Under the pieces are notes generated by a model that saw nothing but the letters and a program-made list of their open reading frames with translations, ran no database searches and was not told the DNA's origin. A DNA stretch of 62,100 bases, filler included, from Globobulimina sp. (Eukaryota): NCBI GenBank assembly GCA_003354225.1. It is 26 parts of 26 records of this genome, joined end to end, with 100 filler letters (N's around TTAATTAATTAA, not from the genome) between each part and the next. Parts side by side here need not be neighbours in the genome. Positions count along the whole stretch, not along the records: positions 33,504 to 35,795 come from PIVH01007604.1; 25 more parts are not named here. One strand, 5' to 3'. Below, in pieces: positions 3,629 to 62,100 of this stretch. Made by a program: the position numbers and the translations under genes. How positions within the stretch are numbered: position 1 is the first letter of the stretch; every line of letters starts with the position of its first letter.

Positions 3629-4788
3629 GATCGCGAATAAAGAAAAGCAGTGAAATAAAAGTCGCACCTTCGTGTTTCACACTAGTATTTGCACCTGTAC
3701 TGCCACCAACATTTCCACAAAAACGGCAGTTACCAAATCCAGTGACCGGACGAGCTTCAGCCATCTAAAAATAGAGTATTTTATGCAGAGGGCATAATAG
3801 TTCAATTGAAATTGTACGCTACCTTGTCGATACACTTTTAAAATAACAAATTTCCAATTTATTTACGTTTATTTATTTTGTTACAAAAAAATCGGATGAA
3901 CTGTAACTAACTGCAACTGAAATGGAGTGGTATGCAAATTTTTGCTATCTATTCTGGGTGGTTTACAAACAACACAGACACAGTTGGTCCGACCGACGTC
4001 ATCCGGTCTTATCTTTTTCCCACGAGCTTTATTTTCCCACGAGTCTCGACCTCCTCCGTCAGTTGTGCCTTTGTTAGCGACTTTCATGAGAAAATTTTTT
4101 CTAACGATACCATATAGGCGATGACACCATTGGATAGATCTCAACGCGAGTATCATTTTGACAAAAAAATTGTTCATAAAATTTTAAGAAATGGCTGAGT
4201 TAGAAAGGTTTTTGTCACGATGTCCATTTCGCTGAAAATGGGCAAAAAAGTGCGCGGATTAGAAAAGGTGTTCCAGAGGGCCAAAAATTTCTGTGGGTCA
4301 AAATTTGATAGAAAGATATGCAATCGATTCGTCTCATCGAGCTGAAACCGAAAATGGATGCAATTTTTTGATATTTCAAAGAATGGATCACTTTTCACCC
4401 GTTTTTTCCATGAAAACGTTTCTCAACCAAAATTTGGTGAAATTTGCGAAATCGATTTTGGACCTTTTAGATGGGACGAAAATGACATTATAACATGTAA
4501 ACAGGTTTTAAGTGATTTTCAAGTGTTTCGAGATCAATTAAAAGAACGAAACATCTAAAAAAAAATTAAAAAGGGTGAATTTTTTGTCTTTTTTCTCCAA
4601 TGACCCAACTTTGAGGGCCTAAAGGCAAACGAATTTTGAAGATTTTTGATTCATTTTTATTTTGGATGTAGGCCATATCGGTATGTTTNNNNNNNNNNNN
4701 NNNNNNNNNNNNNNNNNNNNNNNNNNNNNNNNTTAATTAATTAANNNNNNNNNNNNNNNNNNNNNNNNNNNNNNNNNNNNNNNNNNNN

Positions 4789-16343: not shown

Positions 16344-16755
16344 ATTATTGCAAGTAAGTTTTTAGTGATTCAAGAATGTCCAACAACTTTCAACAATGAA
16401 GAGCAACAATCACAGAATCACTGGCGCCGCGGACGTGTTAAATGATTAAAAAAGATTTCTGGATTCTTTCGGGTAAAACATAGTCTGAATTTATAAAAAA
16501 TTATAAAAAATTTGCAATCAAACTGAAAGATTTGTTTACAAACAAACTAAAAAGCAATTAATTCTTTATTCAATTCAATTCAATTTAAATTAAATTAAAA
16601 AAGGAGCTTTACAATGTTATAATAATTAATGTATTTACTACTATTTAAACACGCANNNNNNNNNNNNNNNNNNNNNNNNNNNNNNNNNNNNNNNNNNNNT
16701 TAATTAATTAANNNNNNNNNNNNNNNNNNNNNNNNNNNNNNNNNNNNNNNNNNNN

Positions 16756-19048
16756 CCAAATGGAACTCGACAAAACCGATAAATTTGGAGATTTCCCTCG
16801 ACTTTATGCAATTTTGGGTTTATAAACCAGAAAAAGCGAATGACATCTCTGTCTGCCGTCTGTAAACCAATATTAAGAAATGCCTTTTCTATGTCTGCCA
16901 ATATTGCGACCGCATGTAAACGAAAACGAAGTAATAAACCACATAAATCATTCAGTAAGTTTGGACCTTTATAAAGGCACTCATTCAAAGATTTATTACT
17001 CTTTTTCGTTTTTGCCGAAGCATCATACACAATACGTACCTTAGTTGTAGTTTTAGTCGGAGTCACAACAGCATGATGCGGAATATAATGTTTCATGGGT
17101 CCTTCTTCCGTCGTGGGTGTCACTTTTTCAATTATACCAAGTTTGACTTGTTCCTGAATGATTGCATCACATTTTTCCAATAAAGTTGAGTCACGAAATA
17201 GTCTATTTGCTAATGACTTGAAGCGACTGAGGGCAAGACCATAATTTTCCGGTAAATCGGGTGTCTTTTCTTTCCAAGGCCATGTCACTTCATAACGATT
17301 GTTTTTAATTTGTACAGTTTTTTCAAAATTTTCTAAAGCAATTTTGTCATCTGAAAGTTTTGGGGGGTCAATAATCCCTATGTTTTCGAGATCCCAGAAA
17401 GTTTCTAAATCGGGAATAATTGGAAGTGATAAATCAGGGGGGGTCAAGTAAGTATTCGGTAACGGCGAAGTGTTACCATATGTCATACACAAAAGATCAA
17501 TATCAGCCCCCTTGATATTTTCGTCAGTTTTGGCGCGACCTGAAATCATCCAACCTAATTTAGTAGCCAAAAGGTATAAACCTGGAGCAAGTTCCTTTGT
17601 TTCTGAAAGTAAAAAATCTAAGTAATAATCATTTCCCAACAGTAATTCAATAGTAACGTTTTCCACAGTGTCTGGAAGTGTGTCTGCTAACGTTTTCCGA
17701 TCAACAGTCAAAGGTACCGTAAGGGGTACACGTGTTAAAGTACAATACGAAATTTTGGGTACAATATGTACGGTAATGGGTACTTTTTGGCCATTTTTGG
17801 TAACAATAATCATTGTCGCGGTTGGGCAAGTAAGATGTTTTGGCTCGTCCGAACCAAAAGTAATAACCGAAATTTCTGCAGTACCTTTTGGTTTTAAATC
17901 GATCGTTTTAGCTAAATTTTCGGATGCAAAAGTTTTAGATGCGCCAGTATCGGCCAAAAGTCGAGTAACAGTACATGCAGTTTCATCTTCATTAGCTACC
18001 ATAGGCGATGCAGTTTGCATGTATATAGCTTGTTTGTGCGTAGCGATTAAACCCGTGTCTACTGTGTCACAAATCATGACATTCATCTCACCAGTTTTGC
18101 CGCCGTCAGTTTTAGGTTTACCCCCCCAGGAAGGTTTTGACGGATTTTCACCAAATTTTTGTCGACAAAGACTGCTGTTATGATTACGAGGTTGACCACA
18201 ATAAAAACATTTGTATTGAGTTTTTGTACATTGTTTTGCCATATGTTCAGGATTTAAACAAATGTAACAATTACCTTTTATTTTTTATTTTCTGGATTCT
18301 ACAGTCGAATAAGTTGGACATTCGTCGTGCCAGTGTGATTTTCCACAATAAATGCATGGCCTAGTAGGAACATTTTGACGAGAATTCGCCATCAAAGCAC
18401 TACCCGTAGTAGGTCTAGATTGATAACTTCTTGGACGCGGACTAGGTTCTGACTGACTGAATTTGCGAAAATTCGGAGTGAAAAAACCGCGACTTTCGGG
18501 TTTTTGCGAAAAACGATTTTGTGAATCAAAGCGATTTTGTGAATCATAACCATAACTAGAGGCAATCGTGCTCTTTTGTGGAGTAATTGGAGCTATTGAT
18601 TCACGCGCACGAATTTCTCTACCTAAAAGCTTCCGTAATTTTTCAAGTGTCCAATTTTCGTCGTCATCAATTTGTCTATTTAATTGGTACATAATTTCGT
18701 CGGGTAATTTTGTCTTAACTAACGATACTAATTGTCGCTGAATATTAACATCCTCGCCAATAGCTTCCAAACTGCGAAAATGTTTTTCCATACTATCATA
18801 AAGTACACGTAATTTAGTAATTTGATTTGGGGAACTTGGTAAATCAGTCAGACTAATATAATGGGCATCAATAATTTTTTGAGGGTTTCCGAATCGATCT
18901 TGCAAATTTTCTAAAGCTATTTTATAATTATCATTAGAAATCGGTATACCAGAAATAGCTTCTAAAGCAACACCCTTCAATTTTGCCCGTAAATGAGTAA
19001 ATTTTTCAACGCCTGACAAATTTGGATTTTTATCAATAGCAGCTTCAA
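16756..19048 (-). mobile_element. BEL/Pao LTR-retrotransposon gag-pol fragment with an in-frame stop
   Basis: DUF1759-like gag (EKFTHLRAKL...LQDRFGN) and three tandem Cys/His knuckles (CIYCGKSHWHDEC, CYICLNPEHMAKQC, CFYCGQPRNHNSSLC). Protease LADTGA...LLLGND, then Pao RT start YIPHHAV...KVRIVYDAS...SLNECL...ADIEKAFL. One TAA at 18285-18287 splits a single reading frame. Confidence 0.95.
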
Positions 19049-23934: not shown

Positions 23935-26027
23935 ATCTCAATCAATGATTTCTGAGCCATGGCGTTTAGGCTCTCGACAGTCGCGGATTGGTTCACCATA
24001 AATAACTGTGACACGTCTAAACTATTCACCTCGTTCTCGTAATCTTCCTTTGCTTTATCTCGCTTGGAGATAACCTCTGATAATTCATCCAAAAACACCT
24101 TCAATTGCTCCGCCTCCTCATTGTCTTTGACCTCACTCACATTCGGCAATTCTGCCGCCAATTCCTGGCGCTCCTTATCTAAGCCGGCGAAGTTGCTCTC
24201 ATACTCTTTCATAGAGCTCTCGATCTTGCTGTTGGTCTCGATGGCCGTGGTCAAATGATTGGCAATCACGTCCACTTGCTGTCGATACTCTTTTTGCAAT
24301 TGCATGCTGTCCGTACGTTGCCACTTACTGCCCAATTTGGTGCGGATTTGGGTGTCAATGGACTGCTCACAATCTAAGGTCGCGATCACTTCGTCTTGCA
24401 ATATCTTCCATGATTCCACATTGATGGATTCTATCCGCGTAAGCAATATATTTAATTCCTTGATGCCGCCAATTTGTTTACATTCAGAGATGCGATCCCA
24501 CACTGCATCCGGTAATCCGGTCTGTGACTGCGCACAATCTGATTTTAAGTTTTTTGTTTTGTTGGCATTTTTTAAGTGGACTTTACTCAAAAATCATGGG
24601 AACAGCATGACATACCGACAGCAGCAGGCAAGCCAAGAGAGGCTAATATAGCACGCGCATTGTCATTGTTTTCATTGCATTGTACCTGCATAGTTTGTAT
24701 ATCCGCCGTCAAGTCAGCTTTTAATTGGTCCGCTTTCTTCGCAATATTCTTCGGTACCATATTCTTAAACGGATCTGCAACGGCATCAAACTTCGGTTTA
24801 TATTCCGTAATGCTGACATTTTGCCGCCCTGTGATGGATTTCATTGACACGACATTTGGTATGCGGTCATGATAAATATCATTATTGTCCTTGACTGCTT
24901 CTTTTAAGCGTGGCGCTAATTTACGTAACAACGATTTGCGATGGGTAGCTAAGGTAGGTATTAATTTATATTTGTTGCTCCCTAGCGACTGCAATATAGA
25001 ATTTGCAGATTTCAGCCATGCGATCTCTTTGCCATACACCCCTTCTTCGGCCAATTTGCTCACACGAATGGATTCATAAAAATGCGCAATTGCAGTGTAA
25101 TATTCTTGCTGCGCTTGGCAATGAGCGCGGAAGTTATATTGTCCCTTTTCGATCCATGATTTTAGTGCTCCCGTAATGTCAATGGAACTGACACACTGTG
25201 CATATCATCAATCAATGTATTTGTGTCAGTATGGGTATGCATGCGCAATTTCGCATGTTGTAAATGTAACAAACCTCTTGGAAGAATTCAGATGTTCCCA
25301 TGGCCAAAGCGGAGATCAATTTGGGTTTCATTTTCTTGCGTATTGCCTGTGTGTATAGCATATCGTGATAGGGGTTAATATATAATTGTATAGACGTAGA
25401 ATGTTATAATACCATTTCAGCGAAACATGCTTGTGCCTGAGCCAACATTAAGGCGGCTAAGAATCGGCAGGAATCCTTTTGTATATCCATGTTTTGTACG
25501 AATTGTATGGATTCAGAGGCCGCGTTTTGTGATAAATATTCGAATACGCCGCCAGATTCACGAAATAGTTTGCAAGCATCTTTGAGGCCATCCTCGTCCT
25601 GCTCCGATAACTTGACCGCATGTAACGAGATTAAGGCGCCTAAATTAAACATAATAGCAAATTTTTCCAATTTGATATCCATGGATTGTTCGATTTTGGT
25701 GTGTCTGTAGGAATCGACCCATTTGAACCAGACTTCGACTTTGGAGGCTTTGGAGAAGACGCCTCTGCCAGATTTGCCCCATGAAAATCGCTTTTCTAAC
25801 ATACATACGTATGCCAAATATTTCTCATGCTTTCCGATGGCTGACACTGGAGATACATTTTTGTCGTCCACATTGCACGAATCTCGAAATTGTTGAATTT
25901 CTTTAATGGTTCCCATCTTTTCCTTCTCTTTGTCTTTGCCGTAAGCATCACGTATGTACACTTGTAATGCCTTCACCAAATTTATTTGTTTATTGTCGAA
26001 TGTTTTCTTTAGAAAAGCTGATATCAT
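23935..26027 (-). CDS. ALIX/BRO1-family ESCRT-associated protein, 3'-partial, at least 4 exons
   Basis: BRO1 motifs (FKWVDSY, EKFAIMFNLGAL, LMLAQAQACF, YGKEIAWL, KDNNDIYHDRIP) followed by a V-domain (ILASLGLPAAV, QIGGIKEL, KWQRTDS). GT-AG introns are present. Confidence 0.92.
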
Positions 26028-26327
26028 TTTATAGGCGATGGACTATGCTGAGAACTGAGGACTAGAGTTTTTCAGGATGTTTGATTATAAAATATGCATT
26101 TTTACGATAAAGAAAAAATGCCTAAGAGCATCCGGTCTTCAGCGTCAGATTTTTATTGGGGTAAGGTGTAAGCAAACCGTTTCTGGTGACTGATAAAGGC
26201 AAAAATAATATAGGTTTGCCTTCGTTTNNNNNNNNNNNNNNNNNNNNNNNNNNNNNNNNNNNNNNNNNNNNTTAATTAATTAANNNNNNNNNNNNNNNNN
26301 NNNNNNNNNNNNNNNNNNNNNNNNNNN

Positions 26328-33403: not shown

Positions 33404-33568
33404 NNNNNNNNNNNNNNNNNNNNNNNNNNNNNNNNNNNNNNNNNNNNTTAATTAATTAANNNNNNNNNNNNNNNNNNNNNNNNNNNNNNNNNNNNNNNNN
33501 NNNGACTAGATCTAGAGAAATATATTTGCATACAAACCCCTTTAGAGATCATATACACTCCACCATAG

Positions 33569-34300
33569 GTTCCAAGCACTCGAACTCAAGGCGAATTCGA
33601 CCGGATAAATTCCAAAGGTCTAGTACCCAGAGTCGGAACACCGGAAAGTGTTTTTCGAGCGGAAAATGATGCCGACATTCAACAAAAAAGATGGAAATGG
33701 TATCAAGAGAATATTGAATTATTTAAATTAGTTTTGCAAAATAATGGTTATGATTTTGAAGATATTCAATGTTCAATCAGCGGCACAAAACCATTGGGAA
33801 TGAAAATGGAATTATTCACTGAATTTAAAAAAGAGTTGGTTACAACCATTAATTCTGCCAAACATCGAATCAGTAAAGAATTAGGAAAAGAGGTTAAATT
33901 TCGAGTGGTATTACAAGGATCTTACATTGTCGGTTACAGTGCCAACCCATTTAAAGGGGATCGCTATATTCCCACATATTTATTTGATGCAACCAAGAAA
34001 AGTGATTATGATTTTCGTTTATTTGCTGATGGCTTAGATGTTTATGTTGAAAAATTAAGAAATGATGGCGTTGATATCAAAGATTGGGGTTTTAAAAAAA
34101 AAGAAAATGCGCATATCATTTATCCGTATGGTAGTAGTATGGCTAAAATATTGCCAGAATGTGTGCCATTCATACAAAAGTTTGAAACAATGACTAAAAA
34201 ATTTAACAATGGGAAAGCAATTGGATTACAAATTTCTGTGTTTACAAAAAATATTGGCTTTGAACCTCTTCCATGGAATATAGAAATACCAATGCAATAA
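33569..34300 (+). CDS. Pol-beta-superfamily nucleotidyltransferase-like protein, last exon
   Basis: An AG acceptor at 33568 opens the frame. Motif VVLQGSYIVG...KSDYDFRLF (GS...DxD). Confidence 0.55.
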   Translation, partial: VPSTRTQGEFDRINSKGLVPRVGTPESVFRAENDADIQQKRWKWYQENIELFKLVLQNNGYDFEDIQCSISGTKPLGMKMELFTEFKKELVTTINSAKHRISKELGKEVKFRVVLQGSYIVGYSANPFKGDRYIPTYLFDATKKSDYDFRLFADGLDVYVEKLRNDGVDIKDWGFKKKENAHIIYPYGSSMAKILPECVPFIQKFETMTKKFNNGKAIGLQISVFTKNIGFEPLPWNIEIPMQ

Positions 34301-34459
34301 CTGTTTTTTTTAAATATGTTTACCATATAAAATTTGCATTAGTTTGTAAATTGTAATCTGAATTGATATCTGTATACATGCTGTGCAAGGATAGATAATT
34401 GAAGCTATGTTTTTCTATAAACGAGAACCAAAACTTTAATTTAAGCTACTTTTAATATA

Positions 34460-35647
34460 ATGGGTGTTCAACAGAGTTCAAAAGTGAAATCTGCCAACCA
34501 TAATAAACCAGAAACTGATTATAGTAAAGAAGTAGCGGCATATCAAAGAGCGGTTTATTACAATGGACAGCCTTCACATAATTATTTGACTCAATCACCT
34601 TCACATAATAATGAGTGCAAAAGGCATAATGATGATAGTAAATCAAAACATGAAATATTTGATTCAATCAACGTTAATATATTGCCTTTGTTTTGGACCG
34701 TAAATGTGAATACATTGTCAGACGAAGAATATTCTAATTTAGCATTAAATTTTTACCTCAATATTTATAATGCAATCCCGTCAGCAAAAGCATTATTTGT
34801 CTCCATTAAAAATGACATGCGCACTCAAAGTAGAATATTTTTCGGCATATTCGGTTGGCTCATTTCCACCATCAACAAAGACAACGCCTATCGTTCGGCA
34901 ATAAAAAAACTATCAAAATTAGGTAAAATGCATTGTAAAATGGGTATTACATTGGATTATTATCAAAAAATGGGAGGCGCTTTCCACAAAACCATGGCTG
35001 AACATTTCAAGGACGACTACAGTTTACGAGTTCGTTTTTGCTTCAATGCTTTGTATGAAACGGTTGTCACTATAATGTTGGCTCAAGATTTTGACTCAAA
35101 ATGCAAATCGCAACAAAAAAAAACCATGCAAGTAATTGTGCAGACGAATGAGTTAGAAAACTGTTTAAATGATCCCCATTCAATGGAATATTTAGAATTA
35201 TTCATGAAACAAAAGTTGTGTTCCGAATTAATTATGTTTTACAAGGATTATTTGCAATTTCAATCATTATTTGCTGCCGTTGCTGCCGTTGCTGTTGATG
35301 CAGACGCAGAGCGATTAAAATTAATCAAATTAAGAAATCGATTTGGAGAACGTATACAGACTTTATATATCAATCAAAATGCTGAACGAGAGGTAAATAT
35401 CGGTTATGTGGCCAGAGATGATTTTTTTTTAAAGTTAAAGTTAGGAAATAATAATTATTGTGAGACCATTTATGACGGCGTTTACGAAGAAATATTGGAA
35501 TTAATTCGAGCGTCCGTATTTCCTTTATTTCAACAAGAGATTAAGAAATTAATCACAACGAATACGTGTACTTCGCCGCGGCCGGTCCAATTGCAAACAA
35601 ATTGGAAGTATGTAACGGACAGATTAAATCACCAAACATTGTGTTAA
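34460..35647 (+). CDS. Globin-RGS fusion protein with a predicted N-myristoylation site
   Basis: N-terminus MGVQQS. Globin at aa ~70-207 (FY99 B10, P107, F113 CD1, Q123 E7, H158 F8 in KLGKMHCKMGI). RGS at aa ~232-360 (LENCLND...LELFMKQKLCSELIMFY...YINQNAEREVNI...VFPLF). Confidence 0.85.
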   Translation: MGVQQSSKVKSANHNKPETDYSKEVAAYQRAVYYNGQPSHNYLTQSPSHNNECKRHNDDSKSKHEIFDSINVNILPLFWTVNVNTLSDEEYSNLALNFYLNIYNAIPSAKALFVSIKNDMRTQSRIFFGIFGWLISTINKDNAYRSAIKKLSKLGKMHCKMGITLDYYQKMGGAFHKTMAEHFKDDYSLRVRFCFNALYETVVTIMLAQDFDSKCKSQQKKTMQVIVQTNELENCLNDPHSMEYLELFMKQKLCSELIMFYKDYLQFQSLFAAVAAVAVDADAERLKLIKLRNRFGERIQTLYINQNAEREVNIGYVARDDFFLKLKLGNNNYCETIYDGVYEEILELIRASVFPLFQQEIKKLITTNTCTSPRPVQLQTNWKYVTDRLNHQTLC

Positions 35648-35897
35648 ATTATGTATAAATAAGCTCAGTTGTATAGTGCCGCACGATGTTTTTCCCAAAA
35701 ATATCTTGCGCGATCTCACGGTTGACAAACAAAGTTTGCGACCTTATCGAAAGCTGAAAGTTTTCGAGTGAGGTTCTTCGGACAAACTTTTACATNNNNN
35801 NNNNNNNNNNNNNNNNNNNNNNNNNNNNNNNNNNNNNNNTTAATTAATTAANNNNNNNNNNNNNNNNNNNNNNNNNNNNNNNNNNNNNNNNNNNNTC

Positions 35898-59709: not shown

Positions 59710-59810
59710 NNNNNNNNNNNNNNNNNNNNNNNNNNNNNNNNNNNNNNNNNNNNTTAATTAATTAANNNNNNNNNNNNNNNNNNNNNNNNNNNNNNNNNNN
59801 NNNNNNNNNG

Positions 59811-62100
59811 AGTCAACGACGATTTGGTCCTCCAGGACCCGGGTATGTTTGCCACACTAGTGGAGAAACGGGTCATTGGCGTCAAGGCTGTCCAAAGCAA
59901 CAAAATCAAAGTGAAGACGGTCCATCAACGAGTAAGTCACCATCAACGGGCAAACAACAACCATTATCGACATCACATGTTTTGGTAAGTTCAGCAATTG
60001 GCACTGTCAATGCACCAAGAAGAATGGACACAGAGGCTAAAAGGAGAGAGTTGGCCAATATTAAATGGGACATGCTTCCTGACGGTAAGTTAGGACCATT
60101 AACATATCAAGAGTATGTTTATCAGTTTGCAATAAAAACGAGTCAGTCATACCCACTTCGGGATTTTTATGTGTTCCCAGAGTTTTTGATTCCAGACGAT
60201 GACTGCCCTGATCAGGAGCTTAAATATGCATATGATAATTGGGTTCATTGCAGTCAACGGGAGGAACCGCAAGAATTCGATTGGGTAACACCTACTCTTG
60301 ATAGAACTCGAAAAAAAGCACATGACCGTTTATTGGCCAATCTACCAGAAAGCCGTGTAGAAGGGACTAGTACAGTAAATGAAGTAATCAAACCAATCGA
60401 TAATTTTGGGATATGCTTTGCCAGAATTACGGGCGAACCAGTGGGTGCCATAGGTAGTGTACGTACAGATGTTACAAATGACAATAATGATAATCGGTGT
60501 GTAACTATTAATAGTCATCCTGTATGGGTACCTAAACCTGTAGAACCCCAACTTCCTGTTAGGTCCCGAAACCGATCTGAATCTATTAGTTTGATTGAAG
60601 CCGCCAATACCGAAAGGGCGACTACTCAACTCGTGTCCCCTACACTTGAATTGCCCATTTTGCGTGCAAATCGATTGGACAGTGATACTGTAGAAGCGAC
60701 CGTATTGACTGCCATGCCTAAAGAGGAGGTAACAGACCCAAAATCAGTAATTGTGTTACAACCAATGGAAATGGCTCTCCATTTGCTTCGTGAACGCATT
60801 AAGATATGTCAATTAGCAGCGCTGGCCGACACAGGGTCTGTGCTTACTATTGCGCAAAGCTCTGTTTGCGAATTTGCGGGCATTTCATTAACTAAATTGC
60901 GCAAATGTCATCATCAAACAATGTCTGGTTTTGGTGGTAATATTAAAATTTTGGGTAAAGTTGTAATGTCTTTCGCCATTGGAGAACTGCAATTCGAACA
61001 AACAGTCCATGTAGTACCTGATGATCCAAGACTACCATTGCTTATTTTTGGAGTGGATTGGTTGGAACGTCACCAAGCTCAATTTGATTTTATAAAAGGT
61101 AATTTAGTTTTGTATGGTTATGAAATTCCTTTGGGTAAGCCTCGACAACAGTGTACATCAAAATGTTTTGCTGCCAGAGGAGGAGCTATGGGTGGATTAG
61201 ATCAAGAATCCAGTGAAGACGAGTCCGACCATCTATCACCAAAAGATGTGAATAATATCAAACGGATCAAGGAAGTAGCAAAGAACAGACATGGACGGAA
61301 GAAACAAATGGCAAAGAATACACAGACAGAACGTAATTTACAAGCAGATGCAGTACTACGTCGCCAATTAATGGAGACAGTAGCTTCCGTAACTGCAATT
61401 GCATTAGCATTACCTGGAAAATGGAGTCAATTTACCCCAGAATCAAGGGATTACTATCAACAAACATTGGCCACTATGCTCGAAGCAATGTCGGAAGCGG
61501 AGGTACCAATAGCTGGAGGTCGAGTCGTTGATATTGCAACGTTGTTGAGACATAACCGAAGACGTATAGCACCAGCAGCTGGAGTATCAACAGATAAAGA
61601 AACACCATCAGTACATACAGATGCAGCAACACCAAGAAGACGGTTGCTAGCTGATGTTGAAGATGGAGTTGAAGGACCAGTGACTGGAGCAGCAGCTTGG
61701 ACAGATGAAGATGAAGACACGGTTGGCAATACACTTGAAAATTTTATGGCGGAAATTATATCTGAAGAACAACGTCATACAGCACCACAACAAGTGCAAG
61801 GTGGATTATTTGGTGAAATAGAACAACGAAGGAACAGAAGAGAAGTCCTGATGCGACGGTATGTACAACGTCAAGCAGACCGTGAAGCCCAGGAAGCCGC
61901 TAGACGAAGAAATCTGGGGTACACTAGACGTAGTCATCATGCTACTCCTGGTGCAACATACACCTGTCACACTTGCGGCATTCCGGGTCACTGGCGCGAA
62001 AACTGCGAGGCTGTCGCCAGTCTTCCAGCACCAATCATCAGATTCCCATGTCGTCATGCCGTGGAGCAACACGGCTCCGCTACCAGAGCGGAGATATGCG
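59811..62100 (+). mobile_element. Retroelement-type gag-protease ORF, open at both ends (~760 aa, missing from the ORF track)
   Basis: My translation shows no stop across the contig. Degenerate knuckle CHTSGETGHWRQGC (59850-59891), retropepsin ALADTGS (60828)...LIFGVDWL, and a second knuckle CHTCGIPGHWRENC (61965-62006). Confidence 0.85.

What the first reader, a model, noticed from the sequence alone, without database searches (positions are those of the whole stretch)
34460..35647. Myristoylated globin-RGS fusion: candidate haem/O2(NO)-gated regulator of G-protein signalling
Seen: one intact, intronless 395-aa ORF lying wholly inside a contig. It starts MGxxxS and has two recognisable domains. 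The first is a 3/3 globin with Tyr99(B10), Pro107(C2), Phe113(CD1), Gln123(E7) and proximal His158(F8). The second is an RGS box with SE..MFY, Y(I)..NA.REVNI (Asn313 aligns by eye with the GAP-critical Asn of RGS4) and VFPLF. Known: TyrB10/GlnE7 globins bind O2 tightly or process NO; globin-coupled sensors usually carry MCP, GGDEF, kinase or cyclase outputs; RGS domains are Galpha GAPs. Inference: a membrane-tethered sensor tying oxygen or NO level directly to Galpha deactivation, which would suit a sediment protist moving along oxygen gradients. I do not know this architecture as a characterised family.
Basis: partly seen in the sequence, partly recalled or inferred. Interest (0 to 1): 0.88.

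Follow-up and report, generated by a model that had tools for sequence, protein, structure and literature searches.

The report
Myristoylated globin-RGS fusion protein, foraminiferal family
This is a real, intact gene for a membrane-anchorable haemoglobin-like domain fused to a G-protein "off-switch" (RGS) domain; it belongs to an undescribed gene family found across foraminifera and may link oxygen, nitric oxide or redox state directly to G-protein signalling.

Summary
Window 34460-35647 (+) is one uninterrupted 395-codon ORF inside a 2.29-kb contig. Pfam finds Globin (36.2 bits, cut-off 22) and RGS (25.8 bits, cut-off 23.9) on the same chain. The join is not an assembly chimera: contigs from three other sequencing runs bridge the linker.

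The gene is not a singleton. 57 of 147 representative homologues span both domains. Every fused member that carries an organism name is foraminiferal: 19 of 30 clusters looked up, covering Bolivina, Ammonia, Nonionella, Elphidium and Reticulomyxa. The family keeps the proximal His (42/45), an N-terminal Met-Gly (29/45) and the RGS Glu and Asn needed for GAP activity in other RGS proteins (42/45 and 34/45).

A family profile matches solved HGbI/HGbRL globins (about 1e-18) and R4-type RGS domains such as RGS2 (about 4e-17). I found no paper describing this architecture.

My reading is a new eukaryotic variant of haem-sensor-coupled signalling. Interest is moderate to high.

The parts
34460..35647 (+). 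Complete intronless ORF, 395 aa plus TAA stop (P0001)
   Evidence: In other runs, 13 of the 17 listed differences inside the ORF are synonymous third-position changes, and 8 of 8 indel rows inside the ORF are multiples of 3.
34460..34480 (+). N-terminal M-G-V-Q-Q-S-S, a candidate N-myristoylation signal (Gly2, Ser6), followed by Lys8 and Lys10
   Evidence: Sequence. Gly2 is present in 33 of 45 alignment rows. Met-Gly starts 29 of 45 members and a PROSITE-like pattern (recalled) is matched by 17 of 45. The modification itself was not tested.
34481..34672 (+). Low-complexity N-terminal tail (aa 8-71), not conserved; likely a flexible tether
   Evidence: There are no conserved columns before F78/W79. 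In-frame indels occur here in run X7, at 34492 (-9) and 34636 (+6).
34673..35089 (+). Globin domain, aa 72-210 (Pfam core aa 98-205 = nt 34751-35074). Key codons: Y99(B10) 34754-34756, F113(CD1) 34796-34798, Q123(E7) 34826-34828, H158(F8) 34931-34933
   Evidence: Pfam Globin 36.2 bits. HGbI alignment. Family profile against 3s1i 1.4e-18. Clade profile against 3wfw 8.9e-19. In the family, H158 is kept in 42/45 rows and G155 in 45/45.
35090..35152 (+). Inter-domain linker (aa 211-231), variable in length across the family. It is flanked by the conserved motifs I-M-x-G-x-D (aa 205-210) and F/L-x-S-L-x-x-C-L (aa 228-236)
   Evidence: M206 is kept in 43/45 rows. The M206-to-C235 spacing ranges from 19 to 54 residues. 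The linker is bridged by contigs of runs X2, X6 and X7.
35153..35536 (+). RGS domain, aa 232-359. Key codons: C235 35162-35164, C254 35219-35221, E256 35225-35227, N313 35396-35398
   Evidence: Pfam RGS 25.8 bits. Family profile against RGS2 3.7e-17, RGS18, RGS1, RGS8 and RGS4 4e-13. Alignments. Column counts.
35285..35332 (+). Copy-specific 16-aa insertion (aa 276-291) in the RGS alpha4-alpha5 loop, partly encoded by a 9-nt tandem repeat at 35271-35294
   Evidence: The C254-to-N313 spacing is 59 here versus 43 in 34 of 45 members. Alignment A2. Tandem Repeats Finder. Length polymorphism at 35286/35287 and 35318 in X2, X6 and X7.
35537..35644 (+). Unconserved C-terminal tail (aa 360-395)
   Evidence: An in-frame 6-nt deletion occurs at 35575 in X7.

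Best explanation
The gene encodes a peripheral-membrane signalling protein of a foraminiferan. An N-terminal myristoyl-glycine and a flexible tail of about 70 residues would tether it to the inner face of a membrane, where heterotrimeric G proteins sit. A haem-binding 3/3 globin with a TyrB10/GlnE7 distal pocket would bind O2 or NO, or change redox state. A C-terminal R4-like RGS domain would bind activated G-alpha and speed up its GTP hydrolysis. The most likely logic is that of a globin-coupled sensor: the ligation or redox state of the haem changes the availability or activity of the RGS domain, so gas or redox conditions set how long G-alpha signals last.

Shown here: gene integrity, both domains, conservation of the haem-ligand and RGS catalytic-contact residues, family-wide conservation of the fusion, and purifying selection.

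Inferred: haem binding, myristoylation, GAP activity, coupling between the domains, and the physiological ligand.
For: 1. Both Pfam domains score above their curated cut-offs on one ORF.

2. Haem pocket. Y99, Q123 and H158 align to Tyr29(B10), Gln50(E7) and the F8 His of HGbI. According to PMC4476040 (passages), HGbI binds O2 with very high affinity through these two distal residues. In the 12-member clade around this protein, H158 and G155 are invariant and Y99, P107 and F113 are at least 90% conserved.

3. The RGS domain is of the GAP-competent type. The family profile matches R4-type RGS domains (RGS2, 18, 1, 8, 5, 16, 4) at 1e-13 to 4e-17, better than axin at 1e-10.

4. The most conserved polar RGS residues are E256 (42/45) and N313 (34/45). 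In 34 of 45 members they are 41 residues apart, derived from the C254-to-N313 spacing of 43. By recall, that equals the RGS4 Glu87-Asn128 spacing. RGS4 Asn128 binds G-alpha-i1 directly (PMC7572916, passage). Alanine substitution of the corresponding Glu313 and Asn357 of Selaginella RGS abolished GAP activity and cut affinity 45-fold and 295-fold (PMC11061236, passages).

5. The fusion is conserved. 57 of 147 representatives span both domains in one aligned stretch, and 29 of 147 list both Pfam families. 19 of 19 fused clusters with an organism name are foraminiferal, covering four rotaliid genera and the monothalamid Reticulomyxa. Many of these come from transcriptome assemblies, so the fused mRNA exists in relatives.

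6. Constraint on this gene. 13 of 17 listed substitutions are synonymous, and 8 of 8 indels in the ORF are in frame and fall in the tails, the linker or the loop insertion.

7. The Met-Gly start is kept in 29 of 45 members.

8. Conserved junction motifs sit on both sides of the linker.

9. Rhizarians have most GPCR/G-protein components, with lineage-specific G-alpha and RGS radiations (PMC3971589, passages; PMC5784254, passage).
Against:
- The RGS score of this single copy is marginal (25.8 against 23.9 bits).
- This copy has Leu257, Ser352 and Leu356 at positions that, by recalled RGS4 numbering, correspond to the G-alpha contacts Asn88, Asp163 and Arg167. It also carries a 16-residue loop insertion.
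- Across the whole family the distal pocket varies: B10 is Y in 23 and F in 16 rows; E7 is Q 12, L 10, T 5, H 3. There is therefore no single conserved ligand chemistry.
- Linker length varies from 19 to 54 residues, which does not favour one rigid allosteric interface.
- The only NCBI-annotated paralogue (R. filosa P0127) has Tyr in place of the proximal His and Glu in place of the RGS Asn.
- No G-alpha of this organism was seen. None is in the window and no genome is held.
- Transcription of this particular gene is not shown. Runs X6 and X7 are only guessed to be RNA.
Confidence: 0.5

Rival explanations
1. G-protein-targeted enzyme. The globin is a catalytic haem protein (NO dioxygenase, nitrite reductase or superoxide source). 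The RGS domain mainly recruits it to activated G-alpha or receptor complexes at the membrane. Information would then flow from the G protein to local NO/ROS chemistry rather than from gas to G protein.
For: - The TyrB10/GlnE7 pocket is that of the flavohaemoglobin/HGbI group (PMC4476040, passages).
- The weak best NCBIfam hit is the NO-inducible flavohaemoprotein family (E 0.019).
- Myristoylated globins with proposed redox or electron-transfer roles are known: GLB-26 (PMC3520999, abstract) and globin X (PMC3176823, abstract).
- Denitrifying foraminifera that carry family members handle NO (PMC8153729, passages).
Against: - There is no reductase domain on the chain.
- The distal pocket is not conserved across paralogues, which is unusual for one fixed catalytic chemistry.
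- The conserved RGS Glu and Asn point to a functional GAP surface rather than mere docking.
Confidence: 0.2
2. Non-GAP RGS. The RGS-like domain has lost GTPase-accelerating activity and serves as a scaffold or binds another partner, as in axin, GRKs or sorting nexins. The globin would then regulate or localise that other interaction.
For: [quoted passage not shown]
- In this copy three recalled G-alpha contact positions are substituted (L257, S352, L356) and a 16-residue insertion is present.
- The single-sequence Pfam score is marginal.
Against: - The family profile is closer to R4 GAP-type RGS domains (about 1e-17) than to axin (1e-10).
- Pfam RGS-like PF09128 was not hit by P0001.
- The Glu and Asn essential for GAP activity in plant RGS are present in this copy and conserved in the family.
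- The family's Cys254 and position-352 Asn match residues of RGS2 in the printed alignment, and RGS2 is an active GAP.
Confidence: 0.17
3. Haem-free or thiol-based module. The globin fold serves as a ligand-free dimerisation or regulatory domain, like the non-haem RsbR or photoglobin-type globins. Alternatively, regulation runs through the two near-invariant RGS cysteines (C235, C254) rather than through a haem ligand.
For: - Non-haem globins exist (PMC8717448, abstract start in the listing).
- 3 of 45 members have Tyr at F8.
- C235 (42/45) and C254 (41/45) are among the best conserved residues of the family.
Against: - The proximal His is kept in 42 of 45 members and is invariant in this protein's clade, as are F5 Gly, CD1 Phe and B10 Tyr.
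- C254 has an ordinary counterpart, the Cys of RGS2, in the printed alignment.
- The distance between the two cysteines could not be measured because no model was available.
Confidence: 0.1
4. Artefact: a chimeric assembly join, a pseudogene, or a contaminant ORF.
For: - The contig is short (2.29 kb) and ends in high-copy repeats.
- The listed contigs of run X1 leave 35051-35156, the linker, uncovered.
- The exact protein is absent from the searched protein collection.
Against: - Contigs from three other runs in three studies bridge the linker collinearly: X2 34928-35476, X6 34828-35578 and X7 34479-35672. No joints were reported inside the ORF.
- 57 homologues have the same domain order in one aligned stretch.
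- The frame is intact, with a synonymous-biased substitution pattern.
Confidence: 0.02

Closest known systems
HGbRL of Methylacidiphilum infernorum (globin fused to a Roadblock/LC7 domain; PDB 3wfw/3wfx) and its single-domain relative HGbI (3s1i)
   Same: - HGbRL is the best solved relative of this protein's globin clade (3wfw 8.9e-19). HGbI scores 1.4e-18 against the family profile.
- It has the same TyrB10/GlnE7/HisF8 pocket.
- HGbRL is also an N-terminal globin fused to a domain of a family that includes a GTPase-activating protein: MglB, the GAP of MglA (PMC4476040, passages).
   Different: - HGbRL is bacterial.
- Its partner domain is Roadblock/LC7, not RGS.
- Its target would be a small Ras-like GTPase, not heterotrimeric G-alpha.
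- It has no lipid anchor.
- Its function is also unproven.
Bacterial and archaeal globin-coupled sensors (HemAT, globin-diguanylate cyclases, globin histidine kinases, globin HD-GYP)
   Same: An N-terminal haem globin, a linker and a C-terminal signalling output domain. Ligand or redox state controls the output (PMC8076648 and PMC10882959, abstract starts in the listing; PMC7475203, passages).
   Different: - Their globins belong to the sensor (protoglobin-related) lineage. Here Pfam Protoglobin scores 18.3 bits, below its cut-off of 25, and the best relatives are F-type globins.
- An RGS output is not among the listed outputs.
- This protein is eukaryotic and lipid-anchored.
R4-subfamily RGS proteins, especially RGS2 (2af0, 4ekc/4ekd)
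   Same: - These are the best solved RGS matches (3.7e-17 to 4e-13).
- The Glu and Asn of the G-alpha contact surface are kept.
- The family's Cys254 and position-352 Asn align with the Cys of RGS2 'FCEEN' and the second Asn of 'MENNSY'. By recall these are RGS2 Cys106 and Asn184, two of its three G-alpha-selectivity residues.
   Different: - R4 RGS proteins have no globin.
- This copy has Ser at position 352.
- This copy has Leu at the position recalled as RGS4 Asn88.
- This copy has a 16-residue insertion.
Human neuroglobin as a redox-dependent GDI for G-alpha-i/o
   Same: A globin whose haem redox state (ferric, under oxidative stress) controls a heterotrimeric G-alpha subunit at the membrane (PMC4842972, abstract and passages).
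   Different: - Neuroglobin acts through its own globin surface on GDP-bound G-alpha, as a GDI.
- It is a separate protein with no RGS domain.
- An RGS domain acts on GTP-bound G-alpha, as a GAP.
ADO-RGS4/RGS5 oxygen-sensing pathway of animals
   Same: It couples O2 level to G-protein signalling through RGS proteins (abstract starts of PMC11406360, PMC13294159 and PMC10506105, listing).
   Different: - Oxygen acts through a non-haem iron dioxygenase that marks the RGS N-terminal Cys for degradation.
- No haem sensor is built into the RGS protein.
- The family here starts with Met-Gly, not Met-Cys.
N-acylated membrane globins (vertebrate globin X; C. elegans GLB-26)
   Same: An N-terminal myristoylation signal on a globin, membrane localisation, and proposed redox-sensing or signalling roles (abstracts).
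   Different: These are single-domain globins with no effector domain. They are hexacoordinate His-E7 types, whereas this protein has Gln at E7.

Membership tests
Globin (Pfam PF00042; haem-binding 3/3 globin) | Profile match above the curated threshold | tested here: met
   36.2 bits against a cut-off of 22, aa 98-205 covering profile positions 3-116 of 117. Family profile against solved globins 1.4e-18.
Globin (Pfam PF00042; haem-binding 3/3 globin) | Proximal His F8 and CD1 Phe in register | tested here: met
   H158 and F113. In the family, H158 is kept in 42/45 members and is invariant in this protein's clade.
Globin (Pfam PF00042; haem-binding 3/3 globin) | 3-on-3 helical fold and bound haem | not testable with these tools
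Haem binding needs spectroscopy.
Globin-coupled sensor (sensor/S lineage) | N-terminal globin followed by a C-terminal signalling output domain | tested here: met
   Globin at aa 98-205, then RGS at aa 232-359.
Globin-coupled sensor (sensor/S lineage) | Globin domain of the protoglobin-related sensor lineage | tested here: not met
   Pfam Protoglobin 18.3 bits, below its cut-off of 25. The nearest solved relatives are HGbI/HGbRL, placed by PMC4476040 with the HMP/FHP/Vitreoscilla group.
Globin-coupled sensor (sensor/S lineage) | Output activity changes with haem ligand or redox state | not testable with these tools
   Needs biochemistry.
RGS domain (Pfam PF00615), GAP-competent R4-like type | Profile match above the curated threshold | tested here: met
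   25.8 bits against a cut-off of 23.9, which is marginal. The family profile scores 3.7e-17 against RGS2 and 4e-13 against RGS4.
RGS domain (Pfam PF00615), GAP-competent R4-like type | Conserved Glu and Asn that contact G-alpha switch regions (RGS4 Asn128; Selaginella RGS Glu313/Asn357) | tested here: met
   E256 and N313 are present, and kept in 42/45 and 34/45 family members. Their role comes from PMC7572916 and PMC11061236 (passages). The correspondence to RGS4 numbering is inferred through the RGS2 and RGS18 alignments.
RGS domain (Pfam PF00615), GAP-competent R4-like type | Remaining G-alpha contact residues (recalled: RGS4 Asn88, Asp163, Arg167) | tested here: not met
   P0001 has L257, S352 and L356. 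The family majority is L/I, N and variable at these positions. The residue list is recalled, not taken from a call.
RGS domain (Pfam PF00615), GAP-competent R4-like type | GAP activity on a cognate G-alpha that is present in the same organism | not tested
   No genome is held and none of the 41 window ORFs scanned is a G-alpha. Rhizarian G-alpha radiations are reported in the literature only.
N-myristoylated proteins | Met-Gly start with a small or uncharged residue at position 3 and Ser/Thr at position 6 | tested here: met
   M-G-V-Q-Q-S-S. The upstream in-frame stop leaves no earlier ATG. The motif definition is recalled. The modification itself was not tested.

The most novel reading that the evidence does not exclude
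Foraminifera possess a lineage-wide array of membrane-anchored haem sensors that act directly as G-alpha GTPase-activating proteins. If so, this would be the first case of a gas- or redox-sensing haem domain built into an RGS protein, and the first eukaryotic globin-coupled sensor acting on heterotrimeric G proteins. Paralogues with different distal pockets (Tyr/Gln, Tyr/His, Phe/Leu, Phe/Thr and others) would be tuned to different ligands (O2, NO, perhaps sulfide or redox state). Together they would steer pseudopodial behaviour and metabolism along the steep oxygen and nitrate gradients of sediments.
Probability: 0.3. Interest if true: 0.85.

Novelty: new variant of a known kind. Interest (0 to 1): 0.62.

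Why it matters
Oxygen and nitric oxide are known to reach G-protein signalling only indirectly. In animals this happens through ADO-dependent degradation of RGS4/5 or through the GDI activity of neuroglobin. A haem sensor fused to the GAP domain itself would be the shortest possible wiring between a gas and a G protein.

The family is also a ready-made set of natural variants for asking how a globin transmits ligand binding to a partner domain. The organisms that carry it, benthic foraminifera, are among the few eukaryotes that live and denitrify in anoxic sediments, and how they sense those gradients is not known.

The hypothesis is directly testable with recombinant protein.

Tried and rejected
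- **Structure prediction.** With no model there was no fold search, no inter-domain geometry and no Cys-Cys distance.
- **Complex prediction.** Complex prediction (globin + haem against the RGS domain) was not available.
- **Protein Atlas.** Closed for this sequence.
- **Own genome.** Not held, so paralogues and G-alpha genes of this organism could not be counted.
- **Word-index protein searches.** P0001 alone gave no hits. The family alignment A1 gave only one hit. The family was found only by the exhaustive HMMER scan.
- **The search for related loci.** With A1 it failed in three collections because the alignment was too diverse. With P0001 in metagenome contigs it found no relatives. With P0093 in prokaryote genomes it found none.
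- **Expression.** No RNA holder was listed for the contig. X6 and X7 are only guessed to be RNA.
- **Run X1.** Its listed contigs do not cover 35051-35156. I do not read this gap as evidence either way.
- **Single-sequence phmmer of the RGS half against the PDB.** Only an insignificant partial RGS14 match (E 0.93). The profile searches were needed.
- **Haem-adjacent Cys159 (F9).** Considered as a conserved nitrosylation site and rejected, because it is not conserved.
- **Rfam and consensus scans of the contig.** Rfam found nothing. The bacterial promoter/terminator scan is uninformative for a eukaryote.
- **Papers not held.** The Reticulomyxa genome paper and Anantharaman et al. 2011 on RGS architectures (PMC3396428) could not be read. 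Either could mention this architecture. Supplementary architecture figures of PMC3971589 could not be seen.
- **Earlier findings of this scan.** No globin-RGS note was found by words, place or sequence.
Full report
**What is there.** The window is not one genomic stretch. It is 26 contigs of about 2.29 kb joined by N44-TTAATTAATTAA-N44 spacers. The finding lies in the contig at 33504-35795. On its + strand, 34460-35647 is a single ORF of 395 codons plus TAA. The frame opens only five codons upstream, at 34445, so the ATG at 34460 is the first possible start. At the local 31% GC, such an open frame has a chance probability of about 1.5e-14.

The contig also holds an unrelated 166-aa ORF at 33800-34300. 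It has no Pfam match and one fragmentary EukProt relative. Both contig ends are high-copy repeats.

**Domains.** Pfam places Globin (PF00042, E 9.6e-9, 36.2 bits, cut-off 22) on aa 98-205. It places RGS (PF00615, E 1.5e-5, 25.8 bits, cut-off 23.9) on aa 232-359. Protoglobin scores 18.3 bits, below its cut-off of 25.

**Globin residues.**
- The best solved relative of the single sequence is Methylacidiphilum HGbI (3s1i, E 8.6e-6).
- In that alignment Y99, Q123 and H158 fall on HGbI residues 29, 50 and the F8 His.
- PMC4476040 (passages read) names the first two Tyr29(B10) and Gln50(E7). It says they bind O2 in a globin of very high O2 affinity.

**The join is real.** Contigs from three other runs, in three different studies, cover the inter-domain linker collinearly: X2 34928-35476, X6 34828-35578 and X7 34479-35672. 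No joint is reported inside the ORF. The listed contigs of X1, which may be the source sample, leave 35051-35156 uncovered. I draw nothing from that gap.

X6 and X7 differ from the window by 41 and 66 substitutions, so they are diverged alleles or orthologues.
- Of the 17 differences inside the ORF that the tool listed, 13 are synonymous third-position changes. The tool showed 40 of 109 differences in all.
- All 8 indel rows inside the ORF are multiples of three. They lie in the N-terminal tail, the linker, the RGS loop insertion or the C-terminal tail.
- The only two single-base indels lie just after the stop codon.

This is the signature of a protein-coding gene under purifying selection. 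Transcription of this copy is not shown, because the RNA label of X6 and X7 is only a guess.

**A family, not a singleton.** The word-index search found nothing. The exhaustive HMMER scan of 1.84 billion representatives found 147 proteins at E<=1e-3, 43 at <=1e-10 and 9 at <=1e-30.
- 57 of the 147 align to the query in one stretch covering at least half of the globin and running into the RGS domain. 12 of these cover both domains almost fully.
- 29 of 147 list both Pfam families: 22 of 74 at E<=0.01 and 7 of 73 at E<=0.001. Many others have a globin too diverged for Pfam but clearly homologous to this one.

I looked up 30 clusters.
- 19 carry a foraminiferal species name: Bolivina argentea, Ammonia sp., Nonionella stella, Elphidium margaritaceum and Reticulomyxa filosa.
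- One is a chytrid protein with 14 RGS domains and no globin.

So every fused member with an organism name is foraminiferal. The named species span four rotaliid families and the monothalamids. Most come from transcriptome assemblies, so fused mRNAs exist in relatives.

A quick maximum-likelihood tree of 44 members shows two deep clades, each holding several genera. The window's protein is sister to a Bolivina protein (SH-aLRT 98; 35% identity), inside a 10-member clade of Ammonia and Bolivina paralogues. The family therefore diversified before these genera split. I did not root the tree or test alternative topologies.

**What the family conserves (45-sequence alignment A1).**
- Globin: G155(F5) 45/45 and H158(F8) 42/45. 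F78 and W79 (41 and 39 of 45), Y187 and M206 (43/45 each) are also highly conserved.
- Distal pocket, which varies: B10 is Tyr 23 and Phe 16; E7 is Gln 12, Leu 10, Thr 5, His 3; CD1 is Phe 19, Leu 12, Met 8.
- This protein's own clade (A2): H158 is invariant, and Y99, P107 and F113 are at least 90% conserved.
- RGS domain: C235 42/45, C254 41/45, E256 42/45, N313 34/45 and F357 42/45. Position 352 is Asn in 30/45, but Ser in this copy.
- N-terminus: Gly2 in 33/45 rows and a Met-Gly start in 29/45. Several of the rest are 5'-truncated fragments.
- Spacing: F8-to-M206 is fixed at 48 residues in 38/45. The linker from M206 to C235 varies from 19 to 54 residues.

This copy carries a private 16-residue insertion (aa 276-291) in the alpha4-alpha5 loop. 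It is partly encoded by a 9-nt tandem repeat and is length-polymorphic between runs.

**Which kinds of globin and RGS.** The A1 profile matches HGbI at 1.4e-18 and RGS2 at 3.7e-17. It then matches RGS18, RGS1, RGS8, RGS5, RGS10, RGS16 and RGS4 (1agr, 4e-13). Axin scores 1e-10. The clade profile A2 matches best the globin domain of HGbRL (3wfw, 8.9e-19).

The globin is therefore of the bacterial TyrB10/GlnE7 type that lacks helix D, the group of flavohaemoglobins. It is not the sensor/protoglobin lineage. The RGS domain is of the canonical GAP type.

The printed alignments put the family Cys254-x-Glu256 on the 'C-E-E' of RGS2 and N313 on the Asn of 'KE(I/V)N'.
- RGS4 Asn128 directly binds G-alpha-i1 (PMC7572916, passage).
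- Alanine substitution of the equivalent Glu and Asn in a plant RGS abolishes GAP activity (PMC11061236, passages).

My mapping to RGS4 numbers goes through these alignments and through recalled numbering. It is an inference. The chain coordinates agree with it to within one residue.

Against full canonical status, this copy has Leu, Ser and Leu where I recall RGS4 Asn88, Asp163 and Arg167.

**Mechanism.** The best-supported reading is a lipid-anchored, haem-based sensor whose output is an RGS GAP domain. Haem ligation or redox state would modulate deactivation of G-alpha. What is shown is the architecture, its conservation and the retention of the key residues of both domains. Haem binding, acylation, GAP activity and coupling are all inferred.

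Rhizarians have most G-protein components, with lineage-specific G-alpha and RGS radiations (PMC3971589; PMC5784254). I could not show a G-alpha in this organism.

The rivals are:
- a G-protein-targeted NO/ROS enzyme;
- a non-GAP scaffold RGS;
- a haem-free or thiol-switched module;
- an artefact, which is effectively excluded.

**Comparison with the known.**
- Architecturally the nearest precedent is HGbRL, a closely related globin fused to a Roadblock/LC7 domain. That domain family includes the GAP MglB.
- Functionally, neuroglobin's redox-dependent GDI action on G-alpha-i and the ADO-RGS4/5 pathway show that oxygen or redox control of G-protein signalling exists, by other means.
- Globin X and GLB-26 show myristoylated membrane globins.
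- Classical globin-coupled sensors share the logic, but not the globin lineage or the output domain.

**Novelty.**
- No paper in the held library contains both 'globin domain' and 'RGS domain'.
- None pairs Reticulomyxa with globin.
- 84 papers contain both 'globin' and 'RGS' as words. None of the 40 listed concerns such a fusion (one candidate checked).
- A large globin review does not mention RGS or G proteins.
- The survey of GPCR-system architectures does not mention globin in its main text. Its supplementary architecture figures could not be seen.
- Anantharaman et al. 2011 and the Reticulomyxa genome paper were not held.

Sequences of the family are public but unstudied. The one NCBI entry I saw (R. 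filosa ETO32836.1) is 'hypothetical protein', auto-named 'RGS domain-containing protein' in UniRef. It lacks the proximal His.

**Verdict.** I class this as a new variant of a known kind: a chimeric, sensor-type globin with a new, eukaryotic output. Confidence in the sensor-GAP mechanism is 0.5. Interest is 0.62.

Noticed in passing
whole window (spacers at 2295-2394, 4689-4788... 59710-59809): The window is 26 unrelated contigs of about 2.29 kb, joined by N44-TTAATTAATTAA-N44 spacers. Features on either side of a spacer are not genomic neighbours.
   Followed up: yes
window 33504-33657 and 35660-35795: Both ends of the target contig have word depths of about 2600-2800 and 290-370 in run X1, against about 6 in the middle. 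They carry many loose ends in several runs. These are repeats that probably broke the assembly. No second copy lies in the window.
   Followed up: partly
window 33800-34300 (+): An upstream 166-aa ORF on the same contig. It has no Pfam family and a single 78%-identical 97-aa EukProt fragment, P0162. It is covered by diverged contigs of X2 and X6. Its function is unknown.
   Followed up: partly
proteins P0060, P0093, P0131: A second, separate group combines the same two domains in the order RGS-globin-RGS(-globin). Its globins are closer to single-domain bacterial-type globins. No relative was found in prokaryote genomes by the pattern scan.
   Followed up: partly
proteins P0016 and P0022: Two giant repeat proteins. 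P0016 (2461 aa, metagenome) has 14 globin domains. P0022 (2719 aa, the chytrid Physocladia obscura) has 14 RGS domains. Both begin with M-P-P-K-T.
   Followed up: no
protein P0127 (Reticulomyxa filosa ETO32836.1): This is the only NCBI-annotated family member I saw. It has Tyr where the proximal His should be and Glu at the RGS Asn column, so it may be a degenerate, haem-free paralogue.
   Followed up: partly
window 23937-26042 (-): BRO1 and ALIX V-domain matches are split over three consecutive ORFs on one contig, which suggests an ALIX-like gene interrupted by introns.
   Followed up: no
window 16755-19046 (-) and 59811-62099 (+): Retroelement-like ORFs: DUF1758 peptidase plus DUF1759 (two adjacent ORFs on one contig), and a long ORF on a separate contig ending in a CCHC zinc knuckle.
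   Followed up: no
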